Virus genome (UHGV): UHGV-0182861
Direction: 5' to 3' (one strand)
DNA: 38,350 nucleotides
DNA from: a virus
In this document: positions 1-36,661 of the stretch, one piece after another
Layout of the letters: each line of letters opens with the position of its first letter
How positions within the stretch are numbered: the first letter of the stretch is position 1
The notes under the pieces: generated by a model
The model's database searches: none
What the model was told of the DNA's origin: nothing
The model's input: only the letters and a program-made list of their open reading frames with translations
Translations under genes and position numbers: made by a program

Positions 1-235
1 GCTCTGAGCCCTCTCTCCCTAGCTTCCGCTCTTAAGACGGGGATCAAAGAGAGGTCAAACCCAAAAGAGATCGCGTGGATGCCCTGCCTGGGGTTGAAGC
101 GTTAAATCTAATCAGGCTAGTTTGTTAGTGGCGTGTCTGTCCGCAGCTGGCAAGCGAATGTAAAGACTGACTAAGCATGTAGTGCCGAGGATGTAGGAAT
201 TTCGGACGCGGGTTCAACTCCCGCCAGCTCCACCA
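1..235 (+). ncRNA. ssrA: tmRNA (ssrA), 3' portion; 5' end lies outside the window
   Basis: Sequence matches the recalled enterobacterial tmRNA 3' half, including the tag-reading-frame region and the tRNA-like end GGACGCGGGTTCAACTCCCGCCAGCTCCACCA ending near 235; followed by a hairpin terminator. Confidence 0.9.
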
Positions 236-237
236 AA
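191..237. repeat. att core direct repeat, copy 1 (ssrA 3' end; attL of prophage)
   Basis: 47-nt string atgtaggaatttcggacgcgggttcaactcccgccagctccaccaaa is repeated identically at 35222..35268. Confidence 0.85.
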
Positions 238-343: not shown

Positions 344-1117
344 TTACAACTTAAAGAGTTTTGCTTGCCCTGGATTAACAGCTTCGACGTAGTTTTTGAC
401 CCCTATTCTGTGCGGCTCATAATTGCTTGAATAGAAATCAATCAGGAAGTCACTCATTTTCTGAGATGTGACTTTCATAACTCCCTTACTCAAAGTTAAA
501 TTAAACACGCTAATCTTTGACGATGGTGCCTGAGTTTTACTCATGTTGGCTTGATAACCAGATTTACGCATTGCCACTAGTGCTTCGTCGTAAGCCGCTT
601 GTAATTGGGCCAAATCGTTTGACGAGATGATCACATCATCCATAAACACACTTAGCTTGAGATCATGATGTTTGTTCAATCGGCGTAGTAAGCTACCAAA
701 ATAACTTTTATCTAAGCAGAGGGTTGCAAGTATTGGAGATTGAACAAAACCAAAAGGGAGGACATGCTTATGTGGACTATGGGACAAGTTTCTTACAGTT
801 GAAAATGTTGAGATTTCCCGCGCTTGAGAATAGGTGAAGTAGCTCTTTAGATCACGGGTGATACGACTACGGCTCGTTGACTGAAAAAATTGTTTAATAT
901 CAACAACGGCAAAAAAATCACTTTTTAAGTGTAATCTGGCAGCTTTAAGATGCCCACCAGTTCTTAGATGGTAAAAATAGAGTGGCGGAATCCACTTGTT
1001 TCTGACAGCCTGAAGTATCTTCCCTCCGACTTTACGTGCCTCAACGCTTGGGACATAAACCCAAACCCCGGGCTTAATCTCAAATTTATCTTCCCACCTT
1101 TGAACTTCTATTGTCAT
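344..1117 (-). CDS. Reverse transcriptase, compact retron-like (257 aa)
   Basis: Translation shows RT motifs: FFAVVDIKQFFQS (motif 1/2 with catalytic D), LPFGFVQSPILATLCL (motif B'), SVFMDDVII (Y/FxDD box) and G-Y-Q-A-N-M-S-K-T (motif D/E-like). About 40% GC versus about 53% for phage core. Poor SD; start overlaps upstream ORF by 32 nt. Confidence 0.75.
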   Translation of the reverse strand: MTIEVQRWEDKFEIKPGVWVYVPSVEARKVGGKILQAVRNKWIPPLYFYHLRTGGHLKAARLHLKSDFFAVVDIKQFFQSTSRSRITRDLKSYFTYSQAREISTFSTVRNLSHSPHKHVLPFGFVQSPILATLCLDKSYFGSLLRRLNKHHDLKLSVFMDDVIISSNDLAQLQAAYDEALVAMRKSGYQANMSKTQAPSSKISVFNLTLSKGVMKVTSQKMSDFLIDFYSSNYEPHRIGVKNYVEAVNPGQAKLFKL

Positions 1118-20807: not shown

Positions 20808-22574
20808 ATGAACACCACACTGACACCCGCAGATCTCGATCCCCGTCGGCAGGCCATGCTGCTGTACTTTCAGGGATACCGCGTAGCCCGCATTGCTGAA
20901 ATGCTGGGCGAGAAAGTTGCAACCGTTCACAGCTGGAAAAAACGCGACAAGTGGGGTGACTATGGGCCGCTGGACCAGATGCAGCTCACCACCGCCGCAC
21001 GCTACTGCCAGCTCATCATGAAGGAGCACAAAGAAGGGAAAGATTTCAAAGAGATTGACCTGCTGGCGCGCCAGTCGGAACGCCACGCGCGGATCGGCAA
21101 GTTTAACAATGGCGGCAACGAAGCCGACTTAAACCCTAACGTCGCCAACCGTAACAAAGGCCCGCGCCGTCAGCCGGAAAAGAATGTTTTCACCGATGAG
21201 CAGATTGAGAAGCTGGAAGAAATCTTCCATTCCTCCATGTTCAACTACCAGCGCCACTGGTGGGAAGCCGGAAAAACCAACCGCATCCGGAACCTGCTGA
21301 AGTCACGCCAGATCGGCGCGACCTTTTACTTTGCCCGTGAAGCCCTGATTGACGCCCTGCTTACCGGACGTAACCAGATTTTCCTTTCCGCCAGCAAGGC
21401 ACAGGCCCACGTCTTTAAGCAGTACATCATCGACTTCGCCAAAGAAGTGGAGGTGGAGTTGAAAGGCGATCCGATGGTGCTTCCTAACGGGGCCACGCTT
21501 TACTTCCTCGGCACCAATGCCCGCACGGCCCAGAGTTATCACGGCAACCTGTATCTGGATGAATATTTCTGGATACCGAAATTCCAGGAGCTGCGCAAAG
21601 TGGCTTCCGGTATGGCTATTCACAAAAAATGGCGACAAACCTATTTTTCCACGCCATCCAGCCTGACACACAGTGCTTATCCGTTCTGGTCCGGTGCGCT
21701 GTTCAACCGTGGGCGCAACAAGGCCGACAAGGTGGACATCGACCTGTCCCACAGCAATCTGGCCCCCGGTCTGCTGTGCGCAGACGGGCAATACCGCCAG
21801 ATAGTCACCGTGGAAGATGCGGTGCGCGGCGGCTGTAACCTGTTCGACCTTGACCAGTTGCGCATGGAGTACAGCCCGGACGAATACCAGAACCTGCTGA
21901 TGTGCGAGTTTGTGGACGATCTCGCGTCCGTGTTCCCGCTCAGCGAGCTGCAGGCGTGCATGGTGGACAGTTGGGAAGTCTGGACCGACTTTCATGCTCT
22001 GGCCCTGCGCCCGTTTGGCTGGCGCGAAGTGTGGATCGGTTATGACCCGGCAAAAGGTACGCAAAACGGCGACAGCGCCGGGTGCGTGGTGGTGGCTCCG
22101 CCAGCCGTGCCGGGCGGTAAGTTCCGCATTCTTGAGCGTCACCAGTGGCGCGGGATGGACTTCCGTGCCCAGGCGGACGCCATCAAAAAACTGACTGAAC
22201 AGTACAACGTGACCTATATCGGTATCGACTCGACAGGTGTCGGTCACGGGGTTTATGAGAACGTAAAAGCGTTCTTTCCTGCCGTCCGGGAGTTTGTCTA
22301 CAACCCCAACGTTAAAAACGCCCTGGTACTCAAGGCCTACGACATTATCAGCCACCGCCGTCTGGAGTTTGACGCCGGGCACACCGACATTGCGCAGTCC
22401 TTTATGGCAATCCGTCGCGCCACCACCGCCAGCGGCAACCGCCCAACCTATGAAGCCAGCCGCAGCGAAGAAGCCAGCCATGCCGATCTGGCCTGGGCAA
22501 CAATGCACGCACTGTTTAACGAACCGCTGCAGGGCGAATCCGCCAATACCAGCAATATTGTGGAGATTTTTTGA
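20808..22574 (+). CDS. P: Terminase large (ATPase) subunit gpP
   Basis: 588-aa product aligns closely with recalled P2 gpP (MNTTLTPADLDPRRQAMLLYFQGYRV...MCEFVDD...SRSEEASHADLAWATMHAL). Confidence 0.95.
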   Translation: MNTTLTPADLDPRRQAMLLYFQGYRVARIAEMLGEKVATVHSWKKRDKWGDYGPLDQMQLTTAARYCQLIMKEHKEGKDFKEIDLLARQSERHARIGKFNNGGNEADLNPNVANRNKGPRRQPEKNVFTDEQIEKLEEIFHSSMFNYQRHWWEAGKTNRIRNLLKSRQIGATFYFAREALIDALLTGRNQIFLSASKAQAHVFKQYIIDFAKEVEVELKGDPMVLPNGATLYFLGTNARTAQSYHGNLYLDEYFWIPKFQELRKVASGMAIHKKWRQTYFSTPSSLTHSAYPFWSGALFNRGRNKADKVDIDLSHSNLAPGLLCADGQYRQIVTVEDAVRGGCNLFDLDQLRMEYSPDEYQNLLMCEFVDDLASVFPLSELQACMVDSWEVWTDFHALALRPFGWREVWIGYDPAKGTQNGDSAGCVVVAPPAVPGGKFRILERHQWRGMDFRAQADAIKKLTEQYNVTYIGIDSTGVGHGVYENVKAFFPAVREFVYNPNVKNALVLKAYDIISHRRLEFDAGHTDIAQSFMAIRRATTASGNRPTYEASRSEEASHADLAWATMHALFNEPLQGESANTSNIVEIF

Positions 22575-23299
22575 TGCCCCCAATCCCAACTAACCTCATG
22601 ACTATCGCGGGACTTCCGGTGGATAGCTCTTTCTTTGCTTACCAGTATGAGTGGAACACTAGCCCAAAGAGTAGAAACCGTGTACTCACAAAAATGCGCC
22701 AGGCAGGCGCGAATTTCTTTTTTTCCTATGAAGCCCTGAACGATGCACTGCATACCGGGCGTAACCAGATTTTCCTCTGCTGCAGCACAGCATCTGCCCT
22801 GACAGTCAAAACCTATATGTCAGCCTTTATAGATCAGGCCGCAACCTGGACACACCTTGGGAAAATAAAATCAGGTAAAGCGCATCTGGAACTACCTAAC
22901 GGTGCGGTCATTTATTTTATCGGGCCGAAAAGTCTCGCCGCCGCGCTCCATGGAAACGTCTATGTGTCAGAGTATGCCTGGGCGGACTCCCCGAAAAATA
23001 TGATTGCGCTCGCCAAAAGCCTGTCCATGCACGCGCGCTATCACGCTACCTACTACACCACCCCAAGCCCCAGCCCGGAAGCATGGCGGGAATACAAGAA
23101 GCTGATTGCCCGCAACAGCACAACCAGCATGATTTTTACCGCTGATGACGCTGCAGCATCCGGGGCAACGCTCGCAACCGGAGCCGCGCTCTTTGATGAT
23201 GAATGGCTTAATGACATGAAAAAAGAGTTATCAGCAGAGGACTGGAAAATGCTGTTTATGTGCGAATGGCCCCAGACTGACAAGGAGCAGGCGGCATGA
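22571..23299 (+). CDS. Terminase ATPase-domain paralog (242 aa), inserted between P and Q
   Basis: Aligns to gpP residues about 145-400 (FAYQYEW/FNYQRHW, RQAGANFFFSYEALNDALHTGRNQIFL / RQIGATFYFAREALIDALLTGRNQIFL, TYYTTPS / TYFSTPS, LFMCEW / LLMCEF) but lacks the gpP N-terminal domain and the C-terminal nuclease; start overlaps P stop (TGATG), stop overlaps Q start (ATGA). Confidence 0.75.
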   Translation: MMPPIPTNLMTIAGLPVDSSFFAYQYEWNTSPKSRNRVLTKMRQAGANFFFSYEALNDALHTGRNQIFLCCSTASALTVKTYMSAFIDQAATWTHLGKIKSGKAHLELPNGAVIYFIGPKSLAAALHGNVYVSEYAWADSPKNMIALAKSLSMHARYHATYYTTPSPSPEAWREYKKLIARNSTTSMIFTADDAAASGATLATGAALFDDEWLNDMKKELSAEDWKMLFMCEWPQTDKEQAA

Positions 23300-24336
23300 G
23301 CAAACGTAAAAACAAGAATAACCGCGCAGCAGTAGATCACAACGCAAATTCAGGCGGTGCTGCGGCAGAGGCGTTCAGCTTTGGCGACCCGGTGCCGGTG
23401 TTAGACCGACGCGAATTGCTGGACTACGTGGAATGCGTGCAGATGGATCGCTGGTATGAACCGCCGGTGAGCTTTGACGGACTGGCGCGGACCTATCGCG
23501 CCGCCGTGCATCACAGCTCACCGATTGCCGTTAAGCGTGACATTCTCAGCAGTACCTATATCCCGCACCGCCTGCTCAGCCAGCAGGCTTTTGCCCGTTT
23601 CGTCCAGGATTATCTGGTGTTCGGTAACGCCTATCTGGAAAAGCGCACCAACCGGCTCGGCAGCGTTCTCTCGCTGGAGCCAGCACTGGCGAAGTACACA
23701 CGGCGCGGCGTGGATCTCGACACCTACTGGTTTGTGCAGTATGGCATGACCACGCAGCCCTATGAATTTACGCAGGGCAACATCTTTCATCTGCTGGAAC
23801 CGGATATTAATCAGGAGATTTACGGGCTGCCCGGCTATCTCTCCGCCATCCCGTCAACCCTGCTCAACGAGTCAGCAACGCTGTTTCGCCGGAAGTATTA
23901 CATCAACGGCAGCCACGCGGGTTTCATCATGTACATGACCGACGCAGCACAGAATCAGGAGGACGTGAACAATATCCGCCAGGCAATGAAAAGCGCCAAA
24001 GGGCCGGGCAACTTCCGCAACCTGTTTATGTATTCGCCCAACGGTAAAAAGGACGGCATCCAGATAATCCCGTTGTCGGAAGTTGCGGCAAAGGATGAAT
24101 TTCTGAACATCAAGAACGTGAGCCGTGATGACATGATGGCTGCTCACCGCGTGCCGCCGCAGATGATGGGCATCATTCCCAACAATACCGGCGGCTTTGG
24201 TGATGTGGAAAAGGCCAGCCGCGTCTTTGTCCGCAACGAGCTGATGCCGCTGCAGAAGCGACTGCAGGAGCTTAACGACTGGCTGGGCGAAGAAGTGATC
24301 CGCTTTGAGCCCTACACCTTAGATATTGAAAACTAA
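23296..24336 (+). CDS. Q: Portal protein gpQ
   Basis: 346-aa product aligns with recalled P2 gpQ (FSFGDPVPVLDRRELLDYVEC...ATLFRRKYY...VFVRNEL). Confidence 0.95.
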   Translation: MSKRKNKNNRAAVDHNANSGGAAAEAFSFGDPVPVLDRRELLDYVECVQMDRWYEPPVSFDGLARTYRAAVHHSSPIAVKRDILSSTYIPHRLLSQQAFARFVQDYLVFGNAYLEKRTNRLGSVLSLEPALAKYTRRGVDLDTYWFVQYGMTTQPYEFTQGNIFHLLEPDINQEIYGLPGYLSAIPSTLLNESATLFRRKYYINGSHAGFIMYMTDAAQNQEDVNNIRQAMKSAKGPGNFRNLFMYSPNGKKDGIQIIPLSEVAAKDEFLNIKNVSRDDMMAAHRVPPQMMGIIPNNTGGFGDVEKASRVFVRNELMPLQKRLQELNDWLGEEVIRFEPYTLDIEN

Positions 24337-24370: not shown

Positions 24371-25804
24371 TCATTCAATACTATCTAGACGACTAACATT
24401 CATTTTATTGAGAAAGTCTCTATTAAAACCGAAATGATACCAGTTACTAGTATTTCGCTGGGCCTCACCCTCTGTCAGCTTTTGAGCCAAAAGTTTACTG
24501 TCATCGATTCCGGTAATAACTGCAATACTCTTGAATCCTCTATGCTGTATTGCTCTTGTAAATAGAGGATATTTCTCATAGTGCCCGGAATACAACAACA
24601 TTTGCGGGTACCAAAAAATACCGGGATTAATGAAGGATATCATAAGAGCAACAAGATCAGCTTGTTTCAAATCATCGAAAGACACATCATCTCTAGTTGC
24701 ACTTTGCTTTACTAACTCAGCAACAGGGGAATACAGTCGATAGTTTTCAGGGGACAATTTACTTTGAAGGTAATCAGAGCTTAAATATAACTCACTGTAA
24801 TTAGCAAACTCCATTCCCGGACTGGTTATATGATCGGGTAGCAAATAAGATGTATGCAGTAATGTATGTACATGCTGGAAAGCTTCAATTTTTATTAAAG
24901 CCGCCAAAATATATAAAAACGTTTCATACGCAAAAATCTGATGGGGCAAAAACCATATTTCATTATATGAATTTACATTTTTCGGACGATTTCTAATCGC
25001 TAACATTACTTCCATAAACTGTAATAGTGCTTTGGAAAAGTCTTCGCCCTGCGTATCACCCTCAAGTAAAACCCAGTCTGTAATGGCATCCCTAACGGCA
25101 ATAAGCTCTTTATGAATTTGCAAAACTTCCGCTGCAAAATCTTCAGTAGTTGGGTTTGTTACGACTTGTAGTGAGATACAATAATTTCGGCACACCTCTA
25201 AAAATTGCCTTCTGCAATCCTTTAATGTCTGCTTTTGATTTAAGACAGCTGATTTTAAAGTTTGAAATTTTGCATGAATTTCATACGTCGGTTTTGACGT
25301 GTCTTGCTCTAAATAAACCGGAGGCTTACCTAATGGTGGCTTAGTAAATTCTGGTTTTCCATAAAGCAACCTGATTAAACGTTCCCAATTATCATTTTCT
25401 TTTTCTGGTGTTGAAAAATCAATATAGATTCTAGACTTCAGAAAGATTGGAGTATACGGCTCTCCATTATCTTTGTACTCAAATATTAATGGTATAAATT
25501 TGGACTGCGACACGGATGAATATATTTCCTGGGAAATTATCATCGACTCAACACCGACACCATCTTTTCTTAAATCGGCTTTTTCTGAGTATTTTTTATC
25601 ACAAATGACTAAAACATGCGTAACCGTTTCATCTTGAACCATTCTTTCCATGTAATAATTTTTATCATCCCCTTCTTTCAAGTCATAAATATCTATGACA
25701 GTTTCAACTCCATCTGCCGCCAATCGTTCAGCCATATCTTTGATATGTTGCTGATGAGTTTTACTTGACCAACTATAGGATATAAAAACTTTTGGCTGGA
25801 TCAT
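24371..25804 (-). CDS. TIR-domain protein with about 330-aa uncharacterised C-terminal domain (477 aa); candidate anti-phage effector
   Basis: N-terminus KVFISYSWSS...VETVIDIYDL...VLVICDKKY...GVGVESMIISQE follows the bacterial TIR pattern (FISYS strand, conserved Glu in GV-x-V-E). Strong SD AGGGAGG and own promoter. About 33% GC versus about 53% for phage core. Confidence 0.7.
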   Translation of the reverse strand: MIQPKVFISYSWSSKTHQQHIKDMAERLAADGVETVIDIYDLKEGDDKNYYMERMVQDETVTHVLVICDKKYSEKADLRKDGVGVESMIISQEIYSSVSQSKFIPLIFEYKDNGEPYTPIFLKSRIYIDFSTPEKENDNWERLIRLLYGKPEFTKPPLGKPPVYLEQDTSKPTYEIHAKFQTLKSAVLNQKQTLKDCRRQFLEVCRNYCISLQVVTNPTTEDFAAEVLQIHKELIAVRDAITDWVLLEGDTQGEDFSKALLQFMEVMLAIRNRPKNVNSYNEIWFLPHQIFAYETFLYILAALIKIEAFQHVHTLLHTSYLLPDHITSPGMEFANYSELYLSSDYLQSKLSPENYRLYSPVAELVKQSATRDDVSFDDLKQADLVALMISFINPGIFWYPQMLLYSGHYEKYPLFTRAIQHRGFKSIAVITGIDDSKLLAQKLTEGEAQRNTSNWYHFGFNRDFLNKMNVSRLDSIE

Positions 25805-25883
25805 CCTCTGCCTCCCTTAGGTTTGATGTTTGATTTATATGACAAATATTTTAACAAGTCTAGGGGTTTACCTGTTGCGCGCG

Positions 25884-25902
25884 CTCGTATCCCCGCCACG
25901 CC
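25884..25902 (-). other. Putative cos cohesive-end site
   Basis: Minus-strand GGCGTGGCGGGGATACGAG resembles the recalled 19-nt cohesive ends of P2 (GGCGAGGCGGGGAAAGCAC) and 186 (GGCGTGGCGGGGAAAGCAT). Confidence 0.5.
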
Positions 25903-26106
25903 TGCCCGCTTTATGTAGTGGTTTTCATGCACCTGCATGATCTACGCAAAAGCCCACCAGTTCTGGCGGGCCTTAGCAAAAACGATCCTCAAACGATCAT
26001 GCGATCTCATGCGGCATAGACATGCACTACAGAGCTAACGCCTCGCAAGGGCTCGTTGTTCAACCTTGCTGACGCCAGAAACAAGTTCAGACGCCAGCAA
26101 CGTTTC

Positions 26107-26340
26107 TTAATGCAGCCAGCTGTCGTCTTCCCACACCTTCTGCATAATTTCCATTACCCGCTGCTTATCCTCATCAAGTTTTAAGCCGGTCAACTCGATA
26201 CCGTTGGCACTGCCTTTGCGAATGCGGATCGCCGTCTTGGGATACAGGGGGCGCAGATTGCGGTAAAGCTCGGATTCAAGGGCGTCCAGGGTAGACTGGC
26301 TAATCTTCTGCTCTTTATCGATCATTATTTCAATGCGCAT
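26107..26340 (-). CDS. DinI-family protein (77 aa)
   Basis: Trimmed to MRIEIMIDKEQ... with SD GAGGTGA; resembles recalled DinI (MRIEVTIAK...EILQETWE). Confidence 0.75.
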   Translation of the reverse strand: MRIEIMIDKEQKISQSTLDALESELYRNLRPLYPKTAIRIRKGSANGIELTGLKLDEDKQRVMEIMQKVWEDDSWLH

Positions 26341-26350
26341 AAAAGTCACC

Positions 26351-26539
26351 TCAGCTGATGACATCCATTGAGCGGTTGTATTCGTGAGTTCTGATTTTTG
26401 CCATGAGTTCATCTGTCAGTTCAGAAACCCACTGCAAAGCCAGCCCCTTCTCTTCATCACTACACTCACTAGCCGCTACAAGCTTAAGAAAAAAATCAAT
26501 GCGCTGGAGCTTCAAAGACTCCAAAAAATAGTCCTGCAT
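26351..26539 (-). CDS. Small protein upstream of DinI-like gene; possible Tum-like antirepressor N-terminal module (62 aa)
   Basis: Trimmed from the 96-aa track ORF because a LexA box and promoter lie inside its N-terminal extension; strong SD GGAGGAAAG before the internal ATG. Confidence 0.5.
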   Translation of the reverse strand: MQDYFLESLKLQRIDFFLKLVAASECSDEEKGLALQWVSELTDELMAKIRTHEYNRSMDVIS

Positions 26540-26580
26540 CTTTCCTCCTATGACACCACAAGCAACACTGTATGCATAGC

Positions 26581-26600
26581 CACTGTTTATATTTACAGTA
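26581..26600. promoter_or_regulatory. LexA box (SOS operator) at promoter of the Tum-like/DinI-like operon
   Basis: caCTGTttatatttACAGta = CTGT-N8-ACAG with AT-rich spacer, about 40 bp upstream of the 26539 start, overlapping a -10-like element. Confidence 0.7.
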
Positions 26601-26692
26601 TATAATAATCTTACTGATGTAAAACGTTTTTTTACGTTCATCAGCCTGATATGCCTGGTATTATTAAGAGCACGAATTGTTAACCCGCGTAA

Positions 26693-29107
26693 TTAATACA
26701 GGTTTCGCCACTTATCATCTTCCTGCAAACGCTGGTTCCGACAGAAGATACGCAGGCCTGCTCCTGACGGAATACTGCCACCGCGAAGGAGCAGATCGAC
26801 CTCTTTCTCGCTGCCATCAAATCCTCTTGACTTCAGTTCATAGACGAGCTGCTGTCGCTGATGGTCTGTAATTCGCTGTTTGTAGTCTTTACGCCGTTTC
26901 GGTTTCACCAGGCGTAACCTTGCAGCCAGTTCCCGGCGCTCTTTTTTGCTCATACTGTGCAGGTAATCGTGCAACTCCTTGTCATCCATGCGGGTAATGT
27001 CCGTCCTGGTATCCCCATCAGCTGATTTGTCTTTCCCTTGTTGGTTCAAATTTTCAGCAAGGGGACAGTTATTGCCACGAGTCCAAGGGGCGCAAGCGCC
27101 CTGGTCGGCTGCCGCCTCCTGAACGTCAACGGCCTTACGAACCATTTTCCACTTCACGGCATGAGTGCAGATCTTGCCCTCTGCAATAGGTGACCAGATG
27201 CCATAAATACGAATGCCGTGATCGCCATAGGCGGTCGGCTCTTCGTTGATTTCATAAGCAGTTCTGATGAGGTGATATTTACGGGGAACCAGTACGCCGC
27301 CCTGCTTCATGATGTAGGTGGCAAAACAACCAGCATCAGCAGCAGCCAGGATTGCATCAAGGCGCGGGTTATCCAGTACCGGCGCACCTGCTTTTTTGTC
27401 ACCCTGTTGCCTTGCCGCCTGACCAGCCAGCAATCGCAGTTCACGGTAAGCCTGACGCCCCGGAATGCCAAAGAAGCGGAATTGCTGAACACGATGCAGA
27501 GACGCCCAGGCATTCACGTATTCAGCGTTATCACGCAGGGATTTACCCGTTTCCTTGCTGATCTCGCCAGCCAGACCACGCCCGTCAATGTTCTTACTGA
27601 TATATTTCGCGATGTAGCTTGTCGGCGTTCCTTTGCGCGGGTTAATCAACTCAGACTTAAAGCGTGGTCCCGTGTTATTCCCCAGCTCCTCGCGGTCTTC
27701 ACGAATGGCAAACTTACGCAACAAAGCAGTAATGGCGCGGCGATCTTTTTTGCGCATAAAACACAACAGGTGCCAGTGAACTGTACCGTCATGATGCGGC
27801 TCAGCCACCCGCACGCCATACCAGCGCAATCCGGCTTTGTGCATCGCCTTACGAAATGCAGCAAACATGCCAACCAGATAATCACTGCTTTGTCTTACCG
27901 TCGCATTTGTCCAGGTCGGGTTGGGCCTGCCGTTATTTAGCGTGGAATGGAAACGTGACGGACAGGTGATGGTGTAGAAAACGGCGCAGTCACCGCGCAT
28001 TTCCGCGATAAGCTCCAGGCCTTTAACACAGGCCATCATCTCATTGCGGCGATGCGCAGGGTTGCTGCTGCTGGCGTTTACCACATCCTCCATGTCCAGC
28101 GTGTCGCCGTCTTCGTTCACCAGTTCATGAGAACGGAAAAACTCCAGCGACTTACGGCGCTGCTCACGTTTATGCATCACGGCTTCATAGCTGACATAGG
28201 GAGATGCTTTTTTGCTGACCAGACAGACAGCACGCAACTGCTCTTCCCGCCATTCGCAACGCATCTTCCATAATTTCCGATACCACCAGTCGGCGCACAG
28301 CATACGCGCCAGCGAACCCGGAATGAGTTCATAGGGCACAGGTTTGCGGCGGTTTCTTTTCCGGCGGAGTTGCTCAAACGCAGGCGGTATGACATCCAGT
28401 CGCAGGGTTTCTGCTGCCACCTTTTCCCATGTCTTGCGGATTTCTTCCGGCTTAACATCATCGGAGGCGTACAAATCACCACAAGCGGCATCAAGACACA
28501 TGCTCATATGCGCAGCGACAAGGGTGGACAGGCGTTTCACCTGATCCTGACTCATTTCAGGCAGGCTCAGCAGACCGTCCAGCCCTTCATGGCTTGCCAT
28601 AAAACGAAAAGATGCAGATAGCTGGCTGTCGCGTACATGCTCCAGTCGTTCCAGGCATGGCTTAATCGTCTCACGCAAATAGCGGGAATAAGCCTTTGGC
28701 CTGCCCAGGTTGCTGAAGTATTTAATACGTTGCATCAGCGGCTTGCTGATATGGGAAGGCTGGGCGTTGACATCCGCCAGAATGACCATGTCTGGATTAA
28801 AACGCTGCTGCTCATGCGCCAGCTTTGCCCGGCTAATTAGCTTATCCTGCTCCATTTCGCGCTGGACAGGATCACGGGATTCATTAAAGAAATAACGCTC
28901 CCAGACCTGATCACTCAGTGCCTCGCGGCGCAGTTGTTCCTGCTCGTTATCGGCAGCGTACAGAGTGATCAGGTTTGAAAGCGCAGAAACCGGCGCAACT
29001 TCCGCCGGGTCCAGATAAGGGTTAATGGCCTTTTTCGGGCTGTTCCATGAGAATGCTGCGGCAGCCTCGTTAAAGCCGCAGCAGTTGTTCATATCGGCAT
29101 GGCTCAT
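26693..29107 (-). CDS. A: Replication initiation protein gpA (rolling-circle endonuclease)
   Basis: 804-aa product in the P2/186 A position with an HUH-like motif (VHWHLL) and downstream catalytic tyrosines (YIAKYISK). Confidence 0.9.
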
Positions 29108-30827: not shown

Positions 30828-31021
30828 TTGTTCCCCCGTTTTTTCGTAGATAGTTCTGCCAGCAATTCATCTTGTGAACGGCACGGATGCCAGCGTTTAC
30901 CATCCTCCCCCATGATCCAGCCGTGACCGTAGTGCATTGCCGGGCTTTGTTTTACCAGCAGCGATGCAAATGATGGTTCTTTCGTCAGCATAAGCACCTC
31001 ACAGCAAACCGAATGACGCAC
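30791..31021 (-). CDS. Hypothetical early protein (76 aa)
   Basis: ORF overlapping the CII 3' end; start uncertain. Confidence 0.35.
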   Translation of the reverse strand: MRHSVCCEVLMLTKEPSFASLLVKQSPAMHYGHGWIMGEDGKRWHPCRSQDELLAELSTKKRGNKWLLKALRRLFH

Positions 31022-31508
31022 CGAGGCCAGTTACAGTATCAACTGCACTTGCCATCGCAGGATTAGCCTGTAAACGGGCCTGCAATGAAACAGCCGCCAG
31101 CGCCATCAGTCGTGTTACAGAGTTAATGCTGCTGATAGCATCACGACGACCTGCACTGGTTTTTACATCGCCAGATACCGCACCTGCAGCAACACGCCCG
31201 ATCTCTGCAGTTGCACTCATGACGTAATGCGGCAGTTTCTCTTTTGCCACCTCATTAATCGGAACACATGGCAGACAATGAATCTGTGCCAGAAAACCGT
31301 CTACCAACGTTGAATCTTCAGTCAGATCGGTAAGCAACCAGATTTCTGGTGCGGTGAGCTGATGCGGTTGATCTGGATTGAGTTTGTTTCGCAGTGTCTG
31401 AACATTCATTCCTGCACGTTCTGCCAGCTTTGCCATATTGTGACGTAGTGCAAAAGCTCTACAGGCTTCATCAAAATGCGGATGTTTGGAAATCTTGTAA
31501 TCAAACAT
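30999..31508 (-). CDS. cII: CII-like lysogeny-establishment activator (186 type)
   Basis: 169 aa; MFDYKISKHPHFDEACRAFALRHNMAKLAERAGMNVQTLRNKLNP... closely matches recalled 186 CII. Confidence 0.85.
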   Translation of the reverse strand: MFDYKISKHPHFDEACRAFALRHNMAKLAERAGMNVQTLRNKLNPDQPHQLTAPEIWLLTDLTEDSTLVDGFLAQIHCLPCVPINEVAKEKLPHYVMSATAEIGRVAAGAVSGDVKTSAGRRDAISSINSVTRLMALAAVSLQARLQANPAMASAVDTVTGLGASFGLL

Positions 31509-31842: not shown

Positions 31843-31917
31843 TTGATTCAATATTTGATACACCAAGATACTACGATCCAATATTTGATACGTCAACAGG
31901 ATTGAAAAATGATACAA
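31843..31917. promoter_or_regulatory. Immunity switch region with repeated TTTGATAC-type operator motifs
   Basis: tttgattca, caatatttgataca, caatatttgatacg and aatgatacaag within the apl-cI intergenic region at roughly 25-30 bp spacing. Confidence 0.5.
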
Positions 31918-32541
31918 GTAAAAGCTGGCGAGAATACAGGGGGAAGAGAGGCTATCCATAGGCTAATGGCAGCCTATGATTTCAAGTCCAGACAGCAACT
32001 TTGCGATCACTTGGGCGCATCAAAAAGCACTATGGCAAACAGATACTTAAGAGATAGTTTTCCTGCAGAATGGGTGATTCAGTGCGCTTTGGAAACAGGA
32101 GTTTCTTTACTGTGGCTAACTACCGGACAGGGCGATCCAGGTTCAAACATTGACCCTAAAAAAAATATCAATTCCGTGAACTCTAGCAAAGTTAAACCTC
32201 TTTCGGAGCTTGTATCTCCTGAAATTGACAAGGCAACTCTCAACGGAGGTTTGCTGATCGATGCTGGAAAAGCAATCATTGATAGCAGCATACTCCCCTC
32301 AGACTCAAGCAACCTGCTGCTGGTGACTACTTCTGGTGATTCTTATTTAATAGATCGCAACCAAACACCACCAGTAAATGGTACGTGGTTAGTGGACATC
32401 GACGGGATAAAAAGCATTGTAAAATTGACACGACTCCCGGGAAACAGATTAGTAGTGCATCAGGATGATTCATCGTTTGAGTGCGAACTGGATGACATTG
32501 AGGTAATAGGCCGCGCACTGAAAATCATTAAGAGCCTTTGA
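31909..32541 (+). CDS. cI: CI immunity repressor (186 type)
   Basis: 210 aa; CALETGVSLLWLTTGQG and WLVDIDGIKSIVKLTRLPGNRL...FECELDDIEVIG align with recalled 186 CI. Confidence 0.85.
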   Translation: MIQVKAGENTGGREAIHRLMAAYDFKSRQQLCDHLGASKSTMANRYLRDSFPAEWVIQCALETGVSLLWLTTGQGDPGSNIDPKKNINSVNSSKVKPLSELVSPEIDKATLNGGLLIDAGKAIIDSSILPSDSSNLLLVTTSGDSYLIDRNQTPPVNGTWLVDIDGIKSIVKLTRLPGNRLVVHQDDSSFECELDDIEVIGRALKIIKSL

Positions 32542-32542
32542 T

Positions 32543-33556
32543 ATGACCATCAGAAAACAGCCGAACGGAAAGTGGTTATGTGAATGCTACCCAAACGGGC
32601 GAGATGGCAAACGCGTACGCAAACAATTTGCGACGAAAGGCGAAGCCATTGCGTTTGAGAATTTCACCATGGACGAGGTAAACAAGAAACCTTGGCTGGG
32701 AGAAAAGGAAGATCGGCGACACCTATCAGAATTAATTGAGCTGTGGTATTCCCTGTATGGTCAAACACTCGCAGACCCCAAGCGACTCATGGCGAAACTT
32801 GGAATTATCTGTAATGGTCTGGGCGATCCCATCGCTTCAGAGCTGACTGCCGGTGACTTTACGAAATACCGCGAAGCACGGCTAAAAGGTGAAGTGCGAA
32901 ATGAAGATGGCACGCTGATGTCGCCCGTTAAGCCCCGCACGGTAAACCTTGAACAGCGCAATCTATCATCTGTGTTCGGTACATTAAAAAAACTAGGACA
33001 CTGGTCAGCACCAAACCCGCTGGCAGGACTTCCGACCTTCAAAATTGCCGAAGGTGAGCTGGCTTTTCTTTCCACGGACGAAATCAAGCGCCTGTTGGCG
33101 GCATGTGCTGAATCTCAAAGCCCTAGCTTACTAATGATTGCAAAAATATGCCTGGCTACTGGCGCACGGTGGAGTGAAGCCGAAAATCTGCAGGGCCATC
33201 AAATATCGAAATACCGAATTACTTATACAAAAACAAAAGGCAAGAAAAACCGTACTGTGCCGATATCTCAGGATCTGTATGATGAACTCCCCAAAAACAG
33301 AGGAAAGTTATTCACGCCATGCAGAAAAGCCTTTGAGCGGGCAGTAAAGCGGGCCGGTATTGACCTACCGGAGGGCCAATGCACCCACGTGCTTCGCCAT
33401 ACATTCGCCAGTCACTTTATGATGAACGGCGGAAACATACTGGTACTGCGTGATATTTTGGGTCATGCCGATATAAAAATGACCATGATTTACGCCCACT
33501 TTTCGCCCGATCACCTTGAAGACGCGGTGACTAAAAATCCTCTTTATAATTTGTAG
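32543..33556 (+). CDS. int: Tyrosine integrase (P2/186 Int family)
   Basis: 337 aa with C-terminal catalytic motifs (R...HVLRHTFASHFMMNGG...LGHADIKMTMIYAHF) directly downstream of cI. Confidence 0.9.
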   Translation: MTIRKQPNGKWLCECYPNGRDGKRVRKQFATKGEAIAFENFTMDEVNKKPWLGEKEDRRHLSELIELWYSLYGQTLADPKRLMAKLGIICNGLGDPIASELTAGDFTKYREARLKGEVRNEDGTLMSPVKPRTVNLEQRNLSSVFGTLKKLGHWSAPNPLAGLPTFKIAEGELAFLSTDEIKRLLAACAESQSPSLLMIAKICLATGARWSEAENLQGHQISKYRITYTKTKGKKNRTVPISQDLYDELPKNRGKLFTPCRKAFERAVKRAGIDLPEGQCTHVLRHTFASHFMMNGGNILVLRDILGHADIKMTMIYAHFSPDHLEDAVTKNPLYNL

Positions 33557-33568
33557 TGGAGACCTATT

Positions 33569-35089
33569 GTGATTCAAAAATTAGATATTCAATCTGATGC
33601 GGTTGCAAAGTTAAGAATGGATGCTATTCGTTCAGAAATCCAAGGTTATTCCCCTGATTTATTTATCGAATTCTGTATGCAATATAACTTACAAAAATTT
33701 GAAGATAATATCCACATGTTACGACACATGCCTTGGATTGTTAATTTATGTCTAAAGTGGTCTGCGTCAGTAACTGGCAAGAATAAAAAATTCAAAATCC
33801 TCGATAAAAATCAAGCAATAAAACTCTTCCAAAAAACTTATGAAACCTTGAACATTATTCCTATCGGTCTTGAGAGGAAGAATGGCATGCATTTCTTCAT
33901 TAGAAATAATCTATACCAACAAGGAATCTACCAGAAAATTGACGCTCTAAACACAATTAGCAGACAAGTCTTTCTATTTTCAGAACTTGAAAAAAACCAT
34001 AAAATAAAGACAAGTTTTTTTACTATCACGAATGTATCTATCGAAGACTTTCTTAAGCTATCTTACATATTAATAACTCACATAACAGAAGAGCATCCCG
34101 TGAGAAAAATGAATGTAGATACATTTACTATATTATTTGACATCATTCCTAGAAATACCATTGAGAAATTTCTTGATGCAATATCAATAAATTACAATGA
34201 ACTATCTACATTTTGCAAATCAAAAACCTATGATAAACCTTTGCTTGAATACTACTCATCATCACCTTTTCTTGAAAAACCATTAATAAAAAAAGGTTCA
34301 GAGTATTTTCAGATACACACACAACTGACTTCAACAAGCATACAGACGTTCATATATGATCTTTTAAGAAGAACTGATGCCGAGAAGTTCATGGATAGCT
34401 TTGGAAATGTATTTGAAAATGCACTGGAATTAATACTAAAAGAAAGCGAAATTGATTTTCATAACGAAAAACACCTTAAAGAACGACTACCTAAAGATAA
34501 TAAAGTAGTTGATTATTTCATTCCACATACTGAGGCAAATATTTTCATTGATGCTAAAGGCGTTGAGATACACCAAAAAGGCATGGTAACATTACGCCCT
34601 GAGGATATTGCAGGAAAAATAAAGAAATCGGTATTAAAAGCAATCGAACAATCTCACGAAGTTAATCGAGAAATATACTCTAATGAGCGAATAATAGCTC
34701 CATTCAGGGCTAACTCATATATCATTTGCATTACATATAAAAACCTTTTCTTAGGCAATGGTAGTATCCTAGCTAATACTTATGCTAAAGATGAGATGAA
34801 TAAGATATATGACAAGTTTAAACATAACTATCATATCCCTACAGAGAATATTTTTTGTCTATCATTTGAAGAGTTTGAATATCTCATTGCATCATGCAAA
34901 AGGTTTAAAATTCCGCCTCATGAAGTCTTGCAATCTGCAGTTGAAAAGAACAAAAAACCATCAAGTGCTGCTTTCCTATTTTCCCACCATATAGAAGACT
35001 ATTTTGATAGAGTAGTCAATTCAGTCATAGTCAATGAGGCAGGCATTAAAATGGTAGATTCTATTATCAATAAATTAAAGCCTGAATAA
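33569..35089 (+). CDS. Orphan 506-aa protein, AT-rich; possible PD-(D/E)xK nuclease-like motif
   Basis: GTG start 12 nt after int stop with SD GGAG; about 30% GC; segment VVDYFIPHTEANIFIDAKGVE fits a D...(D/E)xK pattern by eye; no other recognised motif. Confidence 0.55.
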   Translation: MIQKLDIQSDAVAKLRMDAIRSEIQGYSPDLFIEFCMQYNLQKFEDNIHMLRHMPWIVNLCLKWSASVTGKNKKFKILDKNQAIKLFQKTYETLNIIPIGLERKNGMHFFIRNNLYQQGIYQKIDALNTISRQVFLFSELEKNHKIKTSFFTITNVSIEDFLKLSYILITHITEEHPVRKMNVDTFTILFDIIPRNTIEKFLDAISINYNELSTFCKSKTYDKPLLEYYSSSPFLEKPLIKKGSEYFQIHTQLTSTSIQTFIYDLLRRTDAEKFMDSFGNVFENALELILKESEIDFHNEKHLKERLPKDNKVVDYFIPHTEANIFIDAKGVEIHQKGMVTLRPEDIAGKIKKSVLKAIEQSHEVNREIYSNERIIAPFRANSYIICITYKNLFLGNGSILANTYAKDEMNKIYDKFKHNYHIPTENIFCLSFEEFEYLIASCKRFKIPPHEVLQSAVEKNKKPSSAAFLFSHHIEDYFDRVVNSVIVNEAGIKMVDSIINKLKPE

Positions 35090-35221: not shown

Positions 35222-35268
35222 ATGTAGGAATTTCGGACGCGGGTTCAACTCCCGCCAGCTCCACCAAA
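35222..35268. repeat. att core direct repeat, copy 2 (displaced ssrA 3' end; attR of prophage, junction with next island)
   Basis: Identical 47-nt copy of 191..237. Confidence 0.85.
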
Positions 35269-35336: not shown

Positions 35337-35431
35337 GTCTATTGTCGTCTAGTGAGAATTGCTGAGAATCACGAGTTATGGCACCCTGAATGGGACCCAA
35401 GACAAAGGGTCCAAAAATCGAGGGTCCCAAA

Positions 35432-36661
35432 ATGGCAAAGATCGCGAAGAAACTCACCGACACAGAAATCAAAAACACCAAGCCAGCAGACAAAGAAGTC
35501 AACTTGTTTGACGGGGATGGCTTGATTCTACGAATCTCTCCCCTCTCAACAGGTGGGAAAAAAAATTGGTATTTCAGGTATTCAGTGCCAGTGAGCAAGA
35601 AAAGAACCAAGATGAGCCTTGGGACCTACCCTCACCTTACCCTGGCAAGAGCAAGAGCCTTGCGTGATGAATACCTCTCCTTGCTTGCGAATGGCACGGA
35701 CCCTCAAGTCCATAACAACGATAAAGCTAATGCATTAAAGAATGCCACAGAACACATATTACAAGCCGTGGCGAGAAAATGGTTGGATGAGAAGGTAAAG
35801 ACCTCTGGCATCTCACAAGACCATGCAGAAGACATCTGGCGGAGCCTTGAACGAAATATTTTCCCCGGTCTGGGTAATGTGCCAATCAATGAGATCCGTC
35901 CCAAGCTCTTAAAGCAGCATCTTGATCCAATTGAACAACGAGGAGTACTGGAAACTTTGCGGCGGCTAATTTCCAGGTTGAATGAAATCTTCCGTTGGGC
36001 GGCTACAGAAGAGCTGATTGAATTTAACCCCGCAGATAATCTAGGCCAACGTTTCAGTAGGCCTAAAAAACAGAATATGCCTGCCTTACCCCCCTCTGAA
36101 CTCCCTCGTTTTCTGGCAGCACTGAACAATGCTTCTGTCCGTTTAGAAACAAGACTATTGATTGAATGGCAACTTCTCACATGGGTTCGCCCTGGTGAAG
36201 CAGTCCGCGCAAGATGGTCTGATATAGATATGGATAACAGCATGTGGAACATCCCGGCTGAATTTATGAAGATGAAAAAACCTCATAAGGTCCCATTAAG
36301 CAAAGAATCTCTTCGGATACTCAAGTCTATGGAATCAATCAGTGGGCACCGAGAGTGGGTATTTCCCAGCATAAAGGCTCCCTTAAATCATATGCATGAA
36401 CAAACAGCCAATGCAGCAATTATCCGTATGGGCTTTGGAGGTGAACTTGTTGCCCACGGAATGCGATCTATTGCAAGAACGGCAGCGGAAGAGTCAGGTA
36501 AGTTCAGGACAGATGCCCTTGAAGCGGCCCTTGCCCACTCAAAAAAAGACGAAATTATCGCTGCATATAATCGTGCGGAATATATTACCGAACGAGTAGC
36601 TCTCATGCAGTGGTGGGGAGATTATGTCCTGGCACAACAGCTTAAAATTTTTGCTGCTTAA
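35432..36661 (+). CDS. Tyrosine integrase, P4/CP4-57 IntA type
   Basis: Trimmed to MAKIAKKLTDTEIKNTKPADKEVNLFDGDGLILRI (typical P4-family N-terminus) with SD GAGGG; C-terminal catalytic region HGMRSIARTAA...LAHS...AYNRAEY. Confidence 0.85.
   Translation: MAKIAKKLTDTEIKNTKPADKEVNLFDGDGLILRISPLSTGGKKNWYFRYSVPVSKKRTKMSLGTYPHLTLARARALRDEYLSLLANGTDPQVHNNDKANALKNATEHILQAVARKWLDEKVKTSGISQDHAEDIWRSLERNIFPGLGNVPINEIRPKLLKQHLDPIEQRGVLETLRRLISRLNEIFRWAATEELIEFNPADNLGQRFSRPKKQNMPALPPSELPRFLAALNNASVRLETRLLIEWQLLTWVRPGEAVRARWSDIDMDNSMWNIPAEFMKMKKPHKVPLSKESLRILKSMESISGHREWVFPSIKAPLNHMHEQTANAAIIRMGFGGELVAHGMRSIARTAAEESGKFRTDALEAALAHSKKDEIIAAYNRAEYITERVALMQWWGDYVLAQQLKIFAA

What the first reader, a model, noticed from the sequence alone, without database searches (positions are those of the whole stretch)
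25884..26650. SOS-controlled Tum-like/DinI-like pair beside cos, split into two ORFs
A near-consensus LexA box (CTGT-N8-ACAG) overlaps the promoter of a 62-aa ORF followed by a DinI-like ORF. In 186 a LexA-controlled operon encodes Tum, an antirepressor with a DinI-like C-terminus; here the two parts are separate ORFs. The candidate cos 19-mer lies just beyond, between this operon and the TIR gene promoter.
Basis: partly seen in the sequence, partly recalled or inferred. Interest (0 to 1): 0.4.

Follow-up and report, generated by a model that had tools for sequence, protein, structure and literature searches.

The report
Known SOS antirepressor operon of prophage
This is the ordinary DNA-damage switch of a Fels-2/186-type prophage: a LexA-repressed promoter drives a small antirepressor gene and a DinI-like gene next to the phage packaging site, and the arrangement is already described and tested in near-identical phages.

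Summary
It is also already known.

**What is there**
- The window holds a 35-kb P2/186-like prophage inserted in the tmRNA gene.
- On the minus strand, after replication gene A, lies a p95-like promoter: TTTACA, 17 nt, TACTGT.
- A LexA box (26581-26600, 17/20 to consensus) overlaps its -10 element.
- Downstream follow a 62-aa ORF (26539-26351), a 77-aa DinI-family ORF (26340-26107), a terminator hairpin and a 186-type cos 19-mer (25902-25884).
- A bSEFIR defence gene follows cos.

**Why it is already known**
- The 62-aa protein is 98% identical to Fels-2 STM2728.
- It is also 98% identical to E. coli HS ECHS_RS04495. That gene is the "tum" whose in-frame deletion abolished mitomycin C induction of prophage DuoHS (Nat Microbiol 2025).
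- PSP3 annotates the same pair as tumA/tumB.
- Lemire et al. 2011 state that Fels-2 and PSP3 carry tum split in two.
- The module occurs in about 24% of complete E. coli genomes.

**Other support**
- Both ORFs are under strong purifying selection, so the split is not gene decay.
- A 186-type CI repressor, the presumed target, is present.

Novelty: none. Interest: low.

The parts
26618..26623 (-). -35 hexamer TTTACA of the p95-like SOS promoter
   Evidence: Read from the sequence. It lies 17 nt upstream of TACTGT. It corresponds to the annotated 186 p95 (TTCACA, 18 nt, TACTGT). TTTACA is kept in MLG42 even though the spacer there has diverged.
26595..26600 (-). -10 hexamer TACTGT, which is also the first half of the LexA box
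   Evidence: Same hexamer and same position as the annotated -10 of 186 p95. The consensus scanner did not call it, because it matches TATAAT at only 3 of 6 positions.
26581..26600 (-). LexA (SOS) box TACTGTAAATATAAACAGTG
   Evidence: Only CTGT-N8-ACAG in the window. ACTGT-W8-ACAGT was reached by 0 of 100 shuffles. Conserved in 7 related phages, including the annotated 186 LexA site.
26351..26539 (-). tumA-type antirepressor gene, 62 aa (stop codon included)
   Evidence: 98% identical to E. coli HS ECHS_RS04495, the experimentally deleted 'tum' of DuoHS, and to Fels-2 STM2728. Profile homology to the 186 Tum N-terminus. dN/dS 0.06-0.10. AF2 model is a two-helix hairpin, pLDDT 89.
26107..26340 (-). 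tumB / DinI-like gene, 77 aa (stop codon included)
   Evidence: Pfam DinI 1.4e-24. 84% identical to PSP3 TumB, 88% to Fels-2 STM2726.1, and 40% to the 76-aa C-terminal product of 186 tum. dN/dS 0.03-0.09.
25949..25974 (-). Terminator-like hairpin (11-bp stem, GAAC loop, then UUUUG) that ends the SOS operon
   Evidence: RNA fold of 25935-26000, minus strand: -27 kcal/mol, z = -3.7. It occupies the same place as t95b in 186.
25884..25902 (-). cos 19-mer GGCGTGGCGGGGATACGAG (predicted cohesive end)
   Evidence: 15 of 19 identical to the annotated cos of 186 and PSP3, with the flanking CATAAAGCGGGCA conserved. Identical to the 19-mer inside the 'putative cos' of phage Cartapus.
31909..32541 (+). 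186-type CI repressor, the presumed target of the antirepressor
   Evidence: Pfam Phage_CI_repr 6e-31 and Phage_CI_C 4.8e-28; no self-cleavage (S24 peptidase) domain was reported. 32% identical to 186 CI over the full length.

Best explanation
This is the SOS induction operon of a Fels-2/186-type (Peduoviridae) prophage.

In the lysogen, host LexA binds the box that overlaps the -10 element and the start site of a p95-like promoter downstream of replication gene A. This keeps the operon off. DNA damage activates RecA, LexA cleaves itself, and the promoter fires. Two proteins are then made, probably by coupled translation:
- **TumA (62 aa, a two-helix hairpin).** It binds the 186-type CI repressor, which cannot be cleaved by RecA, and stops it from binding its operators. 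The early lytic promoter is thereby derepressed and the prophage is induced.
- **A DinI-like protein (77 aa).** It acts on RecA filaments and modulates the strength or duration of the SOS signal.

A hairpin terminator ends the operon about 45 nt before cos.

What is shown here: the sequence features, their conservation, purifying selection, homology, and the presence of the CI target.

What is shown elsewhere, on a 98%-identical orthologue: that the gene and cleavable LexA are both needed for induction.

What is inferred: LexA binding, the TumA-CI contact and the role of the DinI-like protein in this particular element.
For: - **LexA box.** It is unique in the window, passes the stricter significance test and is conserved in position in 7 relatives, including the annotated 186 p95/LexA site.
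- **Identity to the tested gene.** The ORF is 98% identical to ECHS_RS04495. That gene sits in the same context: gpA, 62-aa ORF, DinI-like. The Phollow paper deleted exactly this locus tag as tum. [quoted passage not shown]
- **Published description of the split.** Lemire 2011 states that Fels-2 and PSP3 have tum split in two and that the upstream PSP3 gene carries the antirepressor activity. PSP3 annotates tumA and tumB.
- **Homology to Tum.** Profile homology of the 62-aa family to the 186 Tum N-terminus. DinI Pfam hit and 40% identity to the Tum C-terminus.
- **Target present.** A 186-type CI, CII and integrase are encoded in the window.
- **Selection.** dN/dS is 0.03-0.10 for both ORFs.
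- **Background.** 186 literature describes Tum sequestering CI after derepression of p95 (PMC7708051).
Against: - There is no experiment on this element itself.
- Similarity of the 62-aa ORF to 186 Tum is invisible to pairwise BLASTP. It rests on profiles (84% hhalign probability) and on intermediates.
- The -10 hexamer is weak (3/6) and the promoter scanner did not call it, although it is the same hexamer as in 186 p95.
- The window's CI is only 45% identical to DuoHS CI, so the TumA-CI pairing is extrapolated.
- The bare CTGT-N8-ACAG motif is expected 0.45 times per window by chance.
Confidence: 0.9

Rival explanations
1. The two ORFs are the decaying remains of a once-fused tum gene broken by a frameshift or nonsense mutation, and the prophage is no longer SOS-inducible.
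For: 186 carries the fused form. One relative, phage 500465-1, has a locally scrambled copy (…ERGWLCSG…) with dN/dS 0.39.
Against: - Both ORFs have their own RBS and start codon.
- dN/dS is 0.03-0.10 against Fels-2, DuoHS, Cartapus and MLG42.
- The 62-aa form is the rule across Enterobacterales. An exhaustive HMMER search found 88 cluster representatives, and none of the representatives whose sequences were inspected showed a DinI fusion.
- The split form is functional in DuoHS.
Confidence: 0.02
2. The LexA-box match is fortuitous or non-functional. The ORFs are expressed by read-through from gene A or constitutively, and induction does not go through LexA.
For: The bare motif is expected 0.45 times per window. 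The -10 is weak. No strong terminator was found between gene A and the box; there is only an imperfect hairpin that overlaps the -35.
Against: - The box is kept at the same place in phages whose surrounding sequence has diverged, such as MLG42, PSP3, 186 and YenM.
- The strict pattern was reached by 0 of 100 shuffles.
- A lexA(Ind-) host blocks induction of the near-identical DuoHS.
Confidence: 0.03
3. The 62-aa protein is not the antirepressor. The DinI-like protein, or another gene, drives induction, and the small ORF has an unrelated role.
For: The 62-aa family has no Pfam or NCBIfam model, and its PHROG is labelled 'unknown function'. No solved structure or informative fold match exists.
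Against: - In-frame deletion of the 98%-identical gene alone abolishes induction in DuoHS.
- In PSP3 the upstream gene is reported to carry the antirepressor activity.
- dinI-homologue deletions had no significant effect on induction in Gifsy prophages.
- The family shows profile homology to the Tum N-terminus.
Confidence: 0.04

Closest known systems
Fels-2 STM2728 / STM2726.1 (Salmonella LT2) and E. coli HS prophage DuoHS tum (ECHS_RS04495) / DinI-like (ECHS_RS04500)
   Same: - Same gene order: gpA, LexA box, 62-aa ORF, 77-aa DinI-like.
- The 62-aa protein is 98% identical; the DinI-like protein is 88% identical.
- The promoter and LexA box are identical.
- Integration is at the tmRNA gene, as known for Fels-2.
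- DuoHS tum has been shown to be required for mitomycin C induction.
   Different: - Downstream cargo differs. Fels-2 and DuoHS have two further ORFs between the DinI-like gene and the portal gene. Here the operon runs straight into a terminator and cos, followed by a bSEFIR gene.
- CI is only 45% identical to DuoHS CI; the N-terminal domain is 77% identical and the C-terminal domain 35%.
PSP3 tumA / tumB
   Same: Two separate genes behind a LexA box after gene A. tumB is 84% identical to the window's DinI-like ORF. The annotation reads 'similar to 5' end of 186 tum; UV induction' and 'similar to dinI and 3' end of 186 tum'.
   Different: PSP3 TumA belongs to a different subfamily (phrog_1993, against phrog_698 here). 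It shows no BLASTP similarity to the window's 62-aa protein.
Coliphage 186 Tum (p95 SOS operon)
   Same: - Same position after gene A, near the right cos end.
- LexA box overlapping a TACTGT -10.
- N-terminal antirepressor module plus DinI-like module.
- 186-type CI as the target.
- The DinI-like part of 186 tum is also annotated as a separate 76-aa product from an internal GTG start.
   Different: In 186 the two modules are fused in one 146-aa ORF and are followed by orf97 before cos. The N-terminal similarity is detectable only with profiles.
Gifsy-1/2/3 dinI-gfoA/gftA SOS loci (Lemire et al. 2011)
   Same: A LexA-repressed prophage operon that pairs a DinI homologue with a small antirepressor acting on a non-cleavable repressor.
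   Different: The gene order is reversed (dinI first). The phages are lambdoid, and the repressor and antirepressor families are different. Homology was not tested here.

Membership tests
Tum-type LexA-controlled antirepressor of 186/Fels-2/PSP3-like phages (split TumA form) | The gene lies downstream of replication gene A, near the right-hand cos end of a P2/186-like genome | tested here: met
   gpA at 26693-29107 (Pfam Phage_GPA 1.9e-127), the ORF at 26351-26539, and cos at 25884-25902.
Tum-type LexA-controlled antirepressor of 186/Fels-2/PSP3-like phages (split TumA form) | A LexA box overlaps the promoter | tested here: met
   Sequence match 17/20. Unique in the window; the strict pattern was reached by 0 of 100 shuffles. 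The position is conserved, and it aligns with the annotated 186 site. Actual LexA binding cannot be tested with these tools.
Tum-type LexA-controlled antirepressor of 186/Fels-2/PSP3-like phages (split TumA form) | Sequence homology to a characterised Tum/TumA | tested here: met
   98% identical to the DuoHS tum product. hhalign against the 186 Tum N-terminal family: 84% probability, E = 8e-6. The 186 Tum N-terminus hits phrog_698 at 5.7e-6. Pairwise BLASTP to 186 Tum is negative.
Tum-type LexA-controlled antirepressor of 186/Fels-2/PSP3-like phages (split TumA form) | The cognate repressor is a 186-type CI without a RecA-dependent self-cleavage domain | tested here: met
   Phage_CI_repr and Phage_CI_C are the only Pfam domains at 31909-32541. 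32% identical to 186 CI.
Tum-type LexA-controlled antirepressor of 186/Fels-2/PSP3-like phages (split TumA form) | The protein binds CI and prevents operator binding; the prophage is SOS-inducible and depends on the gene | not testable with these tools
   Shown for 186 Tum (cited). Genetic dependence is shown for the 98%-identical DuoHS gene.
DinI family (Pfam PF06183) | Match to the family model above the curated threshold | tested here: met
   86.7 bits against a cut-off of 24.2, covering model positions 1-63 of 63.
DinI family (Pfam PF06183) | Orthologue of chromosomal E. coli DinI (NCBIfam equivalog NF007893) | tested here: not met
   54.1 bits against a cut-off of 111. It is a phage DinI-like paralogue (TumB type), not host dinI.
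P2/186-type cos site | A 19-nt cohesive-end sequence and flanks homologous to mapped cos sites | tested here: met
   15 of 19 identical to the annotated cos of 186 and PSP3, with conserved flanks.
P2/186-type cos site | Virion DNA ends map to this sequence | not testable with these tools
   This needs end mapping of packaged DNA.

The most novel reading that the evidence does not exclude
One and the same TumA may act on several immunity types.

- Phages whose TumA is 98-100% identical to this one (100% in Cartapus, 813R9 and 4LV2017) carry CI repressors that are only 40-52% identical overall.
- In those phages the CI N-terminal DNA-binding domain stays 65-77% identical, while the C-terminal oligomerisation domain drops to 33-46%. 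That is about outgroup level (186, PSP3 and YenM show 32-36%).

This would fit a TumA that recognises the conserved N-terminal domain. A single SOS-induced antirepressor could then cross-induce co-resident prophages of this family that differ in CI, as shown for Gifsy phages.

A second, weaker possibility is SOS read-through past the terminator and cos into the bSEFIR defence gene, which lies on the same strand.
Probability: 0.3. Interest if true: 0.35.

Novelty: already known. Interest (0 to 1): 0.1.

Why it matters
It matters little as a discovery. The arrangement is published for Fels-2 and PSP3, and the gene's role has been tested genetically in E. coli HS.

There is a practical point about annotation. 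The 62-aa antirepressor has no Pfam or NCBIfam model, and its PHROG (phrog_698) is labelled 'unknown function'. It therefore appears as 'hypothetical protein' in more than a thousand E. coli genomes. Transferring the Tum/TumA label would allow SOS-inducibility of this very common prophage type to be predicted from sequence.

The location also fixes the boundary of the cargo hotspot. Similarity to sister phages ends 7 nt beyond the cos 19-mer, where the bSEFIR defence gene begins.

Tried and rejected
**Searches that gave nothing**
- Pairwise BLASTP of the 62-aa ORF against 186 Tum and PSP3 TumA found no alignment. PSP3 TumA against 186 Tum also found none. Homology had to be shown through an intermediate, the Yersinia 'tum', and through profiles.
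- Pfam and NCBIfam have no model for the 62-aa ORF.
- A PDB sequence search with the family profile gave only a chance hit, E = 0.83.
- Foldseek of the AF2 model against the PDB returned only generic helical hairpins, all with E of 1 or higher.
- Rfam found nothing in the region; its only hit was the tmRNA at the window's left end.
- The generic promoter/terminator scanner missed both the p95-like promoter and the operon terminator. They were identified by analogy with 186 and by folding.
- The exhaustive HMMER search was examined for fused TumA-DinI members of this subfamily; none was seen among the representatives inspected. Fused and split forms do both occur in the 186-type subfamily.

**Literature steps that failed**
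- The first literature search was unusable because the terms matched at word start.
- Bunny, Liu & Roth 2002, the primary paper on Fels-2 and lexA, is not held. It is therefore cited only through Lemire 2011.

**Explanations rejected**
- Pseudogenised tum: rejected on dN/dS, the separate RBSs and family-wide conservation.
- A chance LexA box: rejected on conservation and the strict-pattern test.

Full report
**Context**

The window contains a complete P2/186-like (Peduoviridae) prophage.
- It is bounded by a 47-nt direct repeat of the tmRNA gene's 3' end, at 191-237 and 35222-35268.
- The region of the finding reads on the minus strand.
- Replication gene A is at 26693-29107 (Pfam Phage_GPA 1.9e-127).
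- The portal gene is at 23296-24336 and the terminase ATPase gene at 20808-22574.
- The lysogeny module is of the 186 type, not the P2 type. CI (31909-32541) has Pfam Phage_CI_repr and Phage_CI_C. CII/CP76 is at 30999-31508 and the integrase at 32543-33556.
- The window's CI is 32% identical to 186 CI over its whole length. No self-cleavage domain was reported.

**Check of the observation**

*Order of elements.* Read 5' to 3' on the minus strand, the elements are:
- the stop of gene A at 26693;
- a -35-like TTTACA at 26623-26618;
- a 17-nt spacer;
- TACTGT at 26600-26595, which is also the first half of the LexA box TACTGTAAATATAAACAGTG (26600-26581);
- the RBS AGGAGG at 26549-26544;
- the ATG at 26539, opening a 62-codon ORF that ends at TGA 26353-26351;
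- a GAGGTG RBS overlapping that stop;
- the ATG at 26340, opening a 77-codon ORF that ends at TAA 26109-26107.

*LexA box.* The box is the only CTGT-N8-ACAG in the window.
- That bare motif is not significant alone: 0.45 are expected, and 34 of 100 shuffles had at least one.
- The stricter ACTGT-W8-ACAGT was found in 0 of 100 shuffles.
- The box occupies the same position before the first gene in Fels-2, Cartapus, MLG42, 500465-1, PSP3, 186 and a Yersinia enterocolitica phage.
- In MLG42 the spacer between the -35 and the box has diverged, while the -35 and the box are kept.
- In 186 the corresponding sequence is annotated as promoter p95 (TTCACA, 18 nt, TACTGT) with its LexA site.

*Start of the 62-aa ORF.* The mechanical ORF list offers a 96-aa version from an upstream ATG. 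In homologues the N-terminal extensions are variable translations of the promoter region, and conservation begins at MQDY.

*Downstream of the DinI-like ORF.*
- A hairpin at 25974-25949 is followed by UUUUG. The fold gives -27 kcal/mol for the 66-nt segment, z = -3.7.
- The sequence CATAAAGCGGGCA|GGCGTGGCGGGGATACGAG|CGCGCGC follows. It aligns with the joined right and left ends of the 186 and PSP3 records, whose first 19 nt are annotated as the cohesive end. The match is 15 of 19, with conserved flanks.
- The same 19-mer lies in the annotated putative cos of phage Cartapus.

*TIR gene.* The gene at 24371-25804, on the same strand, is a bSEFIR defence gene (Pfam SEFIR and TIR_2; PADLOC 9.6e-103). 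Similarity to otherwise 100%-identical Klebsiella phages stops at about 25877, 7 nt past the cos 19-mer. This marks the edge of the variable cargo site.

**What the two ORFs are**

*The 77-aa ORF.*
- It is a DinI-family protein (Pfam 86.7 bits against a cut-off of 24.2).
- It is 84% identical to PSP3 TumB and 88% to Fels-2 STM2726.1.
- It is 40% identical to the C-terminal 76-aa product annotated within 186 tum.
- It does not reach the NCBIfam equivalog threshold for host DinI. It is therefore a phage paralogue.

*The 62-aa ORF: close relatives.*
- It has no Pfam or NCBIfam family. It belongs to phrog_698, labelled 'unknown function'.
- It is 98% identical to Fels-2 STM2728.
- It is also 98% identical to E. 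coli HS ECHS_RS04495. That gene lies in the same gpA, 62-aa, DinI-like context in prophage DuoHS.

*The 62-aa ORF: homology to 186 Tum.*
- Pairwise BLASTP to 186 Tum and to PSP3 TumA is negative.
- Homology is supported by an intermediate. A Yersinia 60-aa 'tum' matches the window protein at 9e-8 and the 186 Tum N-terminus at 2e-10.
- It is supported by hhalign of the two families: 84% probability, E = 8e-6, residues 4-44 aligned to 4-44.
- It is supported by PHROG cross-hits. The 186 Tum N-terminus hits phrog_698 at 5.7e-6. The window protein and PSP3 TumA both hit phrog_1993.
- A graded series of cluster representatives shares the motif (L/I)(Q/E)R(I/V)(D/E)x(I/V/F)x(R/K)L…C…(D/E)(K/R)E(L/I)A(L/I)xW(I/V)(A/S)EL.

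*Structure.* AlphaFold2 predicts a two-helix hairpin with mean pLDDT 89. No solved structure or informative fold match exists.

**Is the split a defect?**

No.
- Both ORFs have their own RBS and start codon.
- dN/dS against Fels-2, DuoHS, Cartapus and MLG42 is 0.06-0.10 for tumA and 0.03-0.09 for the DinI-like gene.
- An exhaustive HMMER search found 88 cluster representatives of the 62-aa family. Almost all are short stand-alone proteins, and no DinI fusion was seen among those inspected.
- Within the 186-type subfamily, both fused forms and 63-78-aa stand-alone forms named 'Tum protein' occur.
- 186 itself is annotated as also producing the DinI-like part separately, from an internal GTG start.

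**What is already known**

- Lemire et al. [quoted passage not shown] 2002 and G. Christie.
- The PSP3 record annotates tumA ('similar to 5' end 186 tum; UV induction of prophage') and tumB.
[quoted passage not shown] - The 900-bp module matches 1280 of 5426 complete E. coli genomes; 636 of them have a match covering at least 80% of the query. It also occurs in many Klebsiella, Salmonella and Yersinia phages.

**Mechanism (best explanation, about 0.9)**

1. LexA represses the p95-like promoter.
2. The SOS response relieves that repression.
3. TumA sequesters the non-cleavable 186-type CI, so the lytic promoter fires.
4. The DinI-like protein modulates RecA filaments.
5. The hairpin terminates the operon before cos.

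The sequence anatomy, conservation, selection and homology are shown here. Dependence of induction on the gene and on LexA cleavage is shown for a 98%-identical orthologue. LexA binding, the TumA-CI contact and the DinI-like role in this element are inferred.

The rivals are pseudogene remnants, a fortuitous box, and the small ORF not being the antirepressor. Each is contradicted by the data above, and together they carry under 0.1.

**A small extra**

- Phages with a TumA 98-100% identical to this one carry CI proteins that are 40-100% identical.
- In an alignment of eight CIs, those that travel with this TumA type keep 65-77% identity in the N-terminal HTH domain but only 33-46% in the C-terminal domain.
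- The C-terminal figure is about the level of outgroups with other Tum types: 32-36% for the C-terminal domain and 38-46% for the N-terminal domain.
- This fits recognition of the N-terminal domain and possible cross-induction between prophages that differ in CI.
- The sample is small, and module shuffling within cI could explain the pattern equally well.

**Verdict**

The novelty category is 'already known' and the interest is low.

Noticed in passing
window 22571-23299 (+): An extra 242-aa ORF is wedged between the terminase ATPase gene P (20808-22574) and the portal gene Q (23296-24336). It is a diverged stand-alone Terminase_6N ATPase-like domain (Pfam 7.9e-15) and shares a 103-nt stretch at 75% identity with P. 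In DuoHS, P and Q abut. The sister Klebsiella phage records sampled gave only a distant (about 39-40%) match, under their own terminase gene where annotated, and only 3 phage records have a close homologue (for example Yersinia MLG42, 88%). Function unknown.
   Followed up: partly
window 344-1117 (-): A 257-aa reverse transcriptase (Pfam RVT_1 2e-21; best PADLOC hit retron RT_VI 6.6e-18) lies between the tmRNA-derived att repeat and ogr (1521-1832). It is probably retron-type defence cargo at the prophage end.
   Followed up: no
window 24371-25804 (-): A bSEFIR single-gene defence system (PADLOC 9.6e-103) lies immediately after cos, on the same strand as the SOS operon. It has its own promoter-like TAGACT-17-TATAAA at about 25825-25853. 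Similarity to 100%-identical sister phages ends at about 25877. SOS read-through into this gene is possible but untested.
   Followed up: partly
window 191-237 and 35222-35268; 35390-36661 (+): A 47-nt perfect direct repeat of the tmRNA 3' end delimits the prophage at 35,031 bp. Just beyond the right-hand repeat lies a second, P4-type integrase (Arm-DNA-bind_3, Phage_int_M and Phage_integrase). This suggests a second island integrated in tandem at the tmRNA gene. A 506-aa ORF without a convincing family match (33569-35089) sits between the prophage integrase and the att repeat.
   Followed up: partly
window 26566-26585 (-): A degenerate second LexA-like box, CAGTGGCTATGCATACAGTG (GTGG-N8-ACAG), overlaps the 3' end of the main box. 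Its ACAG half is kept in all Fels-2-like relatives, and in MLG42 the sequence is closer to consensus. It may be a weak second LexA site, or it may be chance.
   Followed up: no
window 26612-26643 (-): An imperfect inverted repeat, CTGATGAACGT-A6-ACGTTTTACATCAG, overlaps the -35 of the SOS promoter. It is partly conserved in DuoHS. It could be a weak terminator for gene A transcription or a protein-binding site.
   Followed up: no
window 31909-32541 (+) compared with loci L012-L017: Phages with a TumA 98-100% identical to this one (100% in Cartapus, 813R9 and 4LV2017) carry CI repressors only 40-52% identical overall. The CI N-terminal domain is 65-77% identical and the C-terminal domain 33-46%.
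   Followed up: partly
window 25975-26106 (-): The roughly 130 nt between the DinI-like stop codon and the terminator contain short direct repeats: CTGGCGTC twice, GATCGTTT twice, and several GCATG. GCATG/TGCAT motifs also recur near the right ends of 186 and PSP3. They may be terminase recognition elements of the cos region.
   Followed up: no
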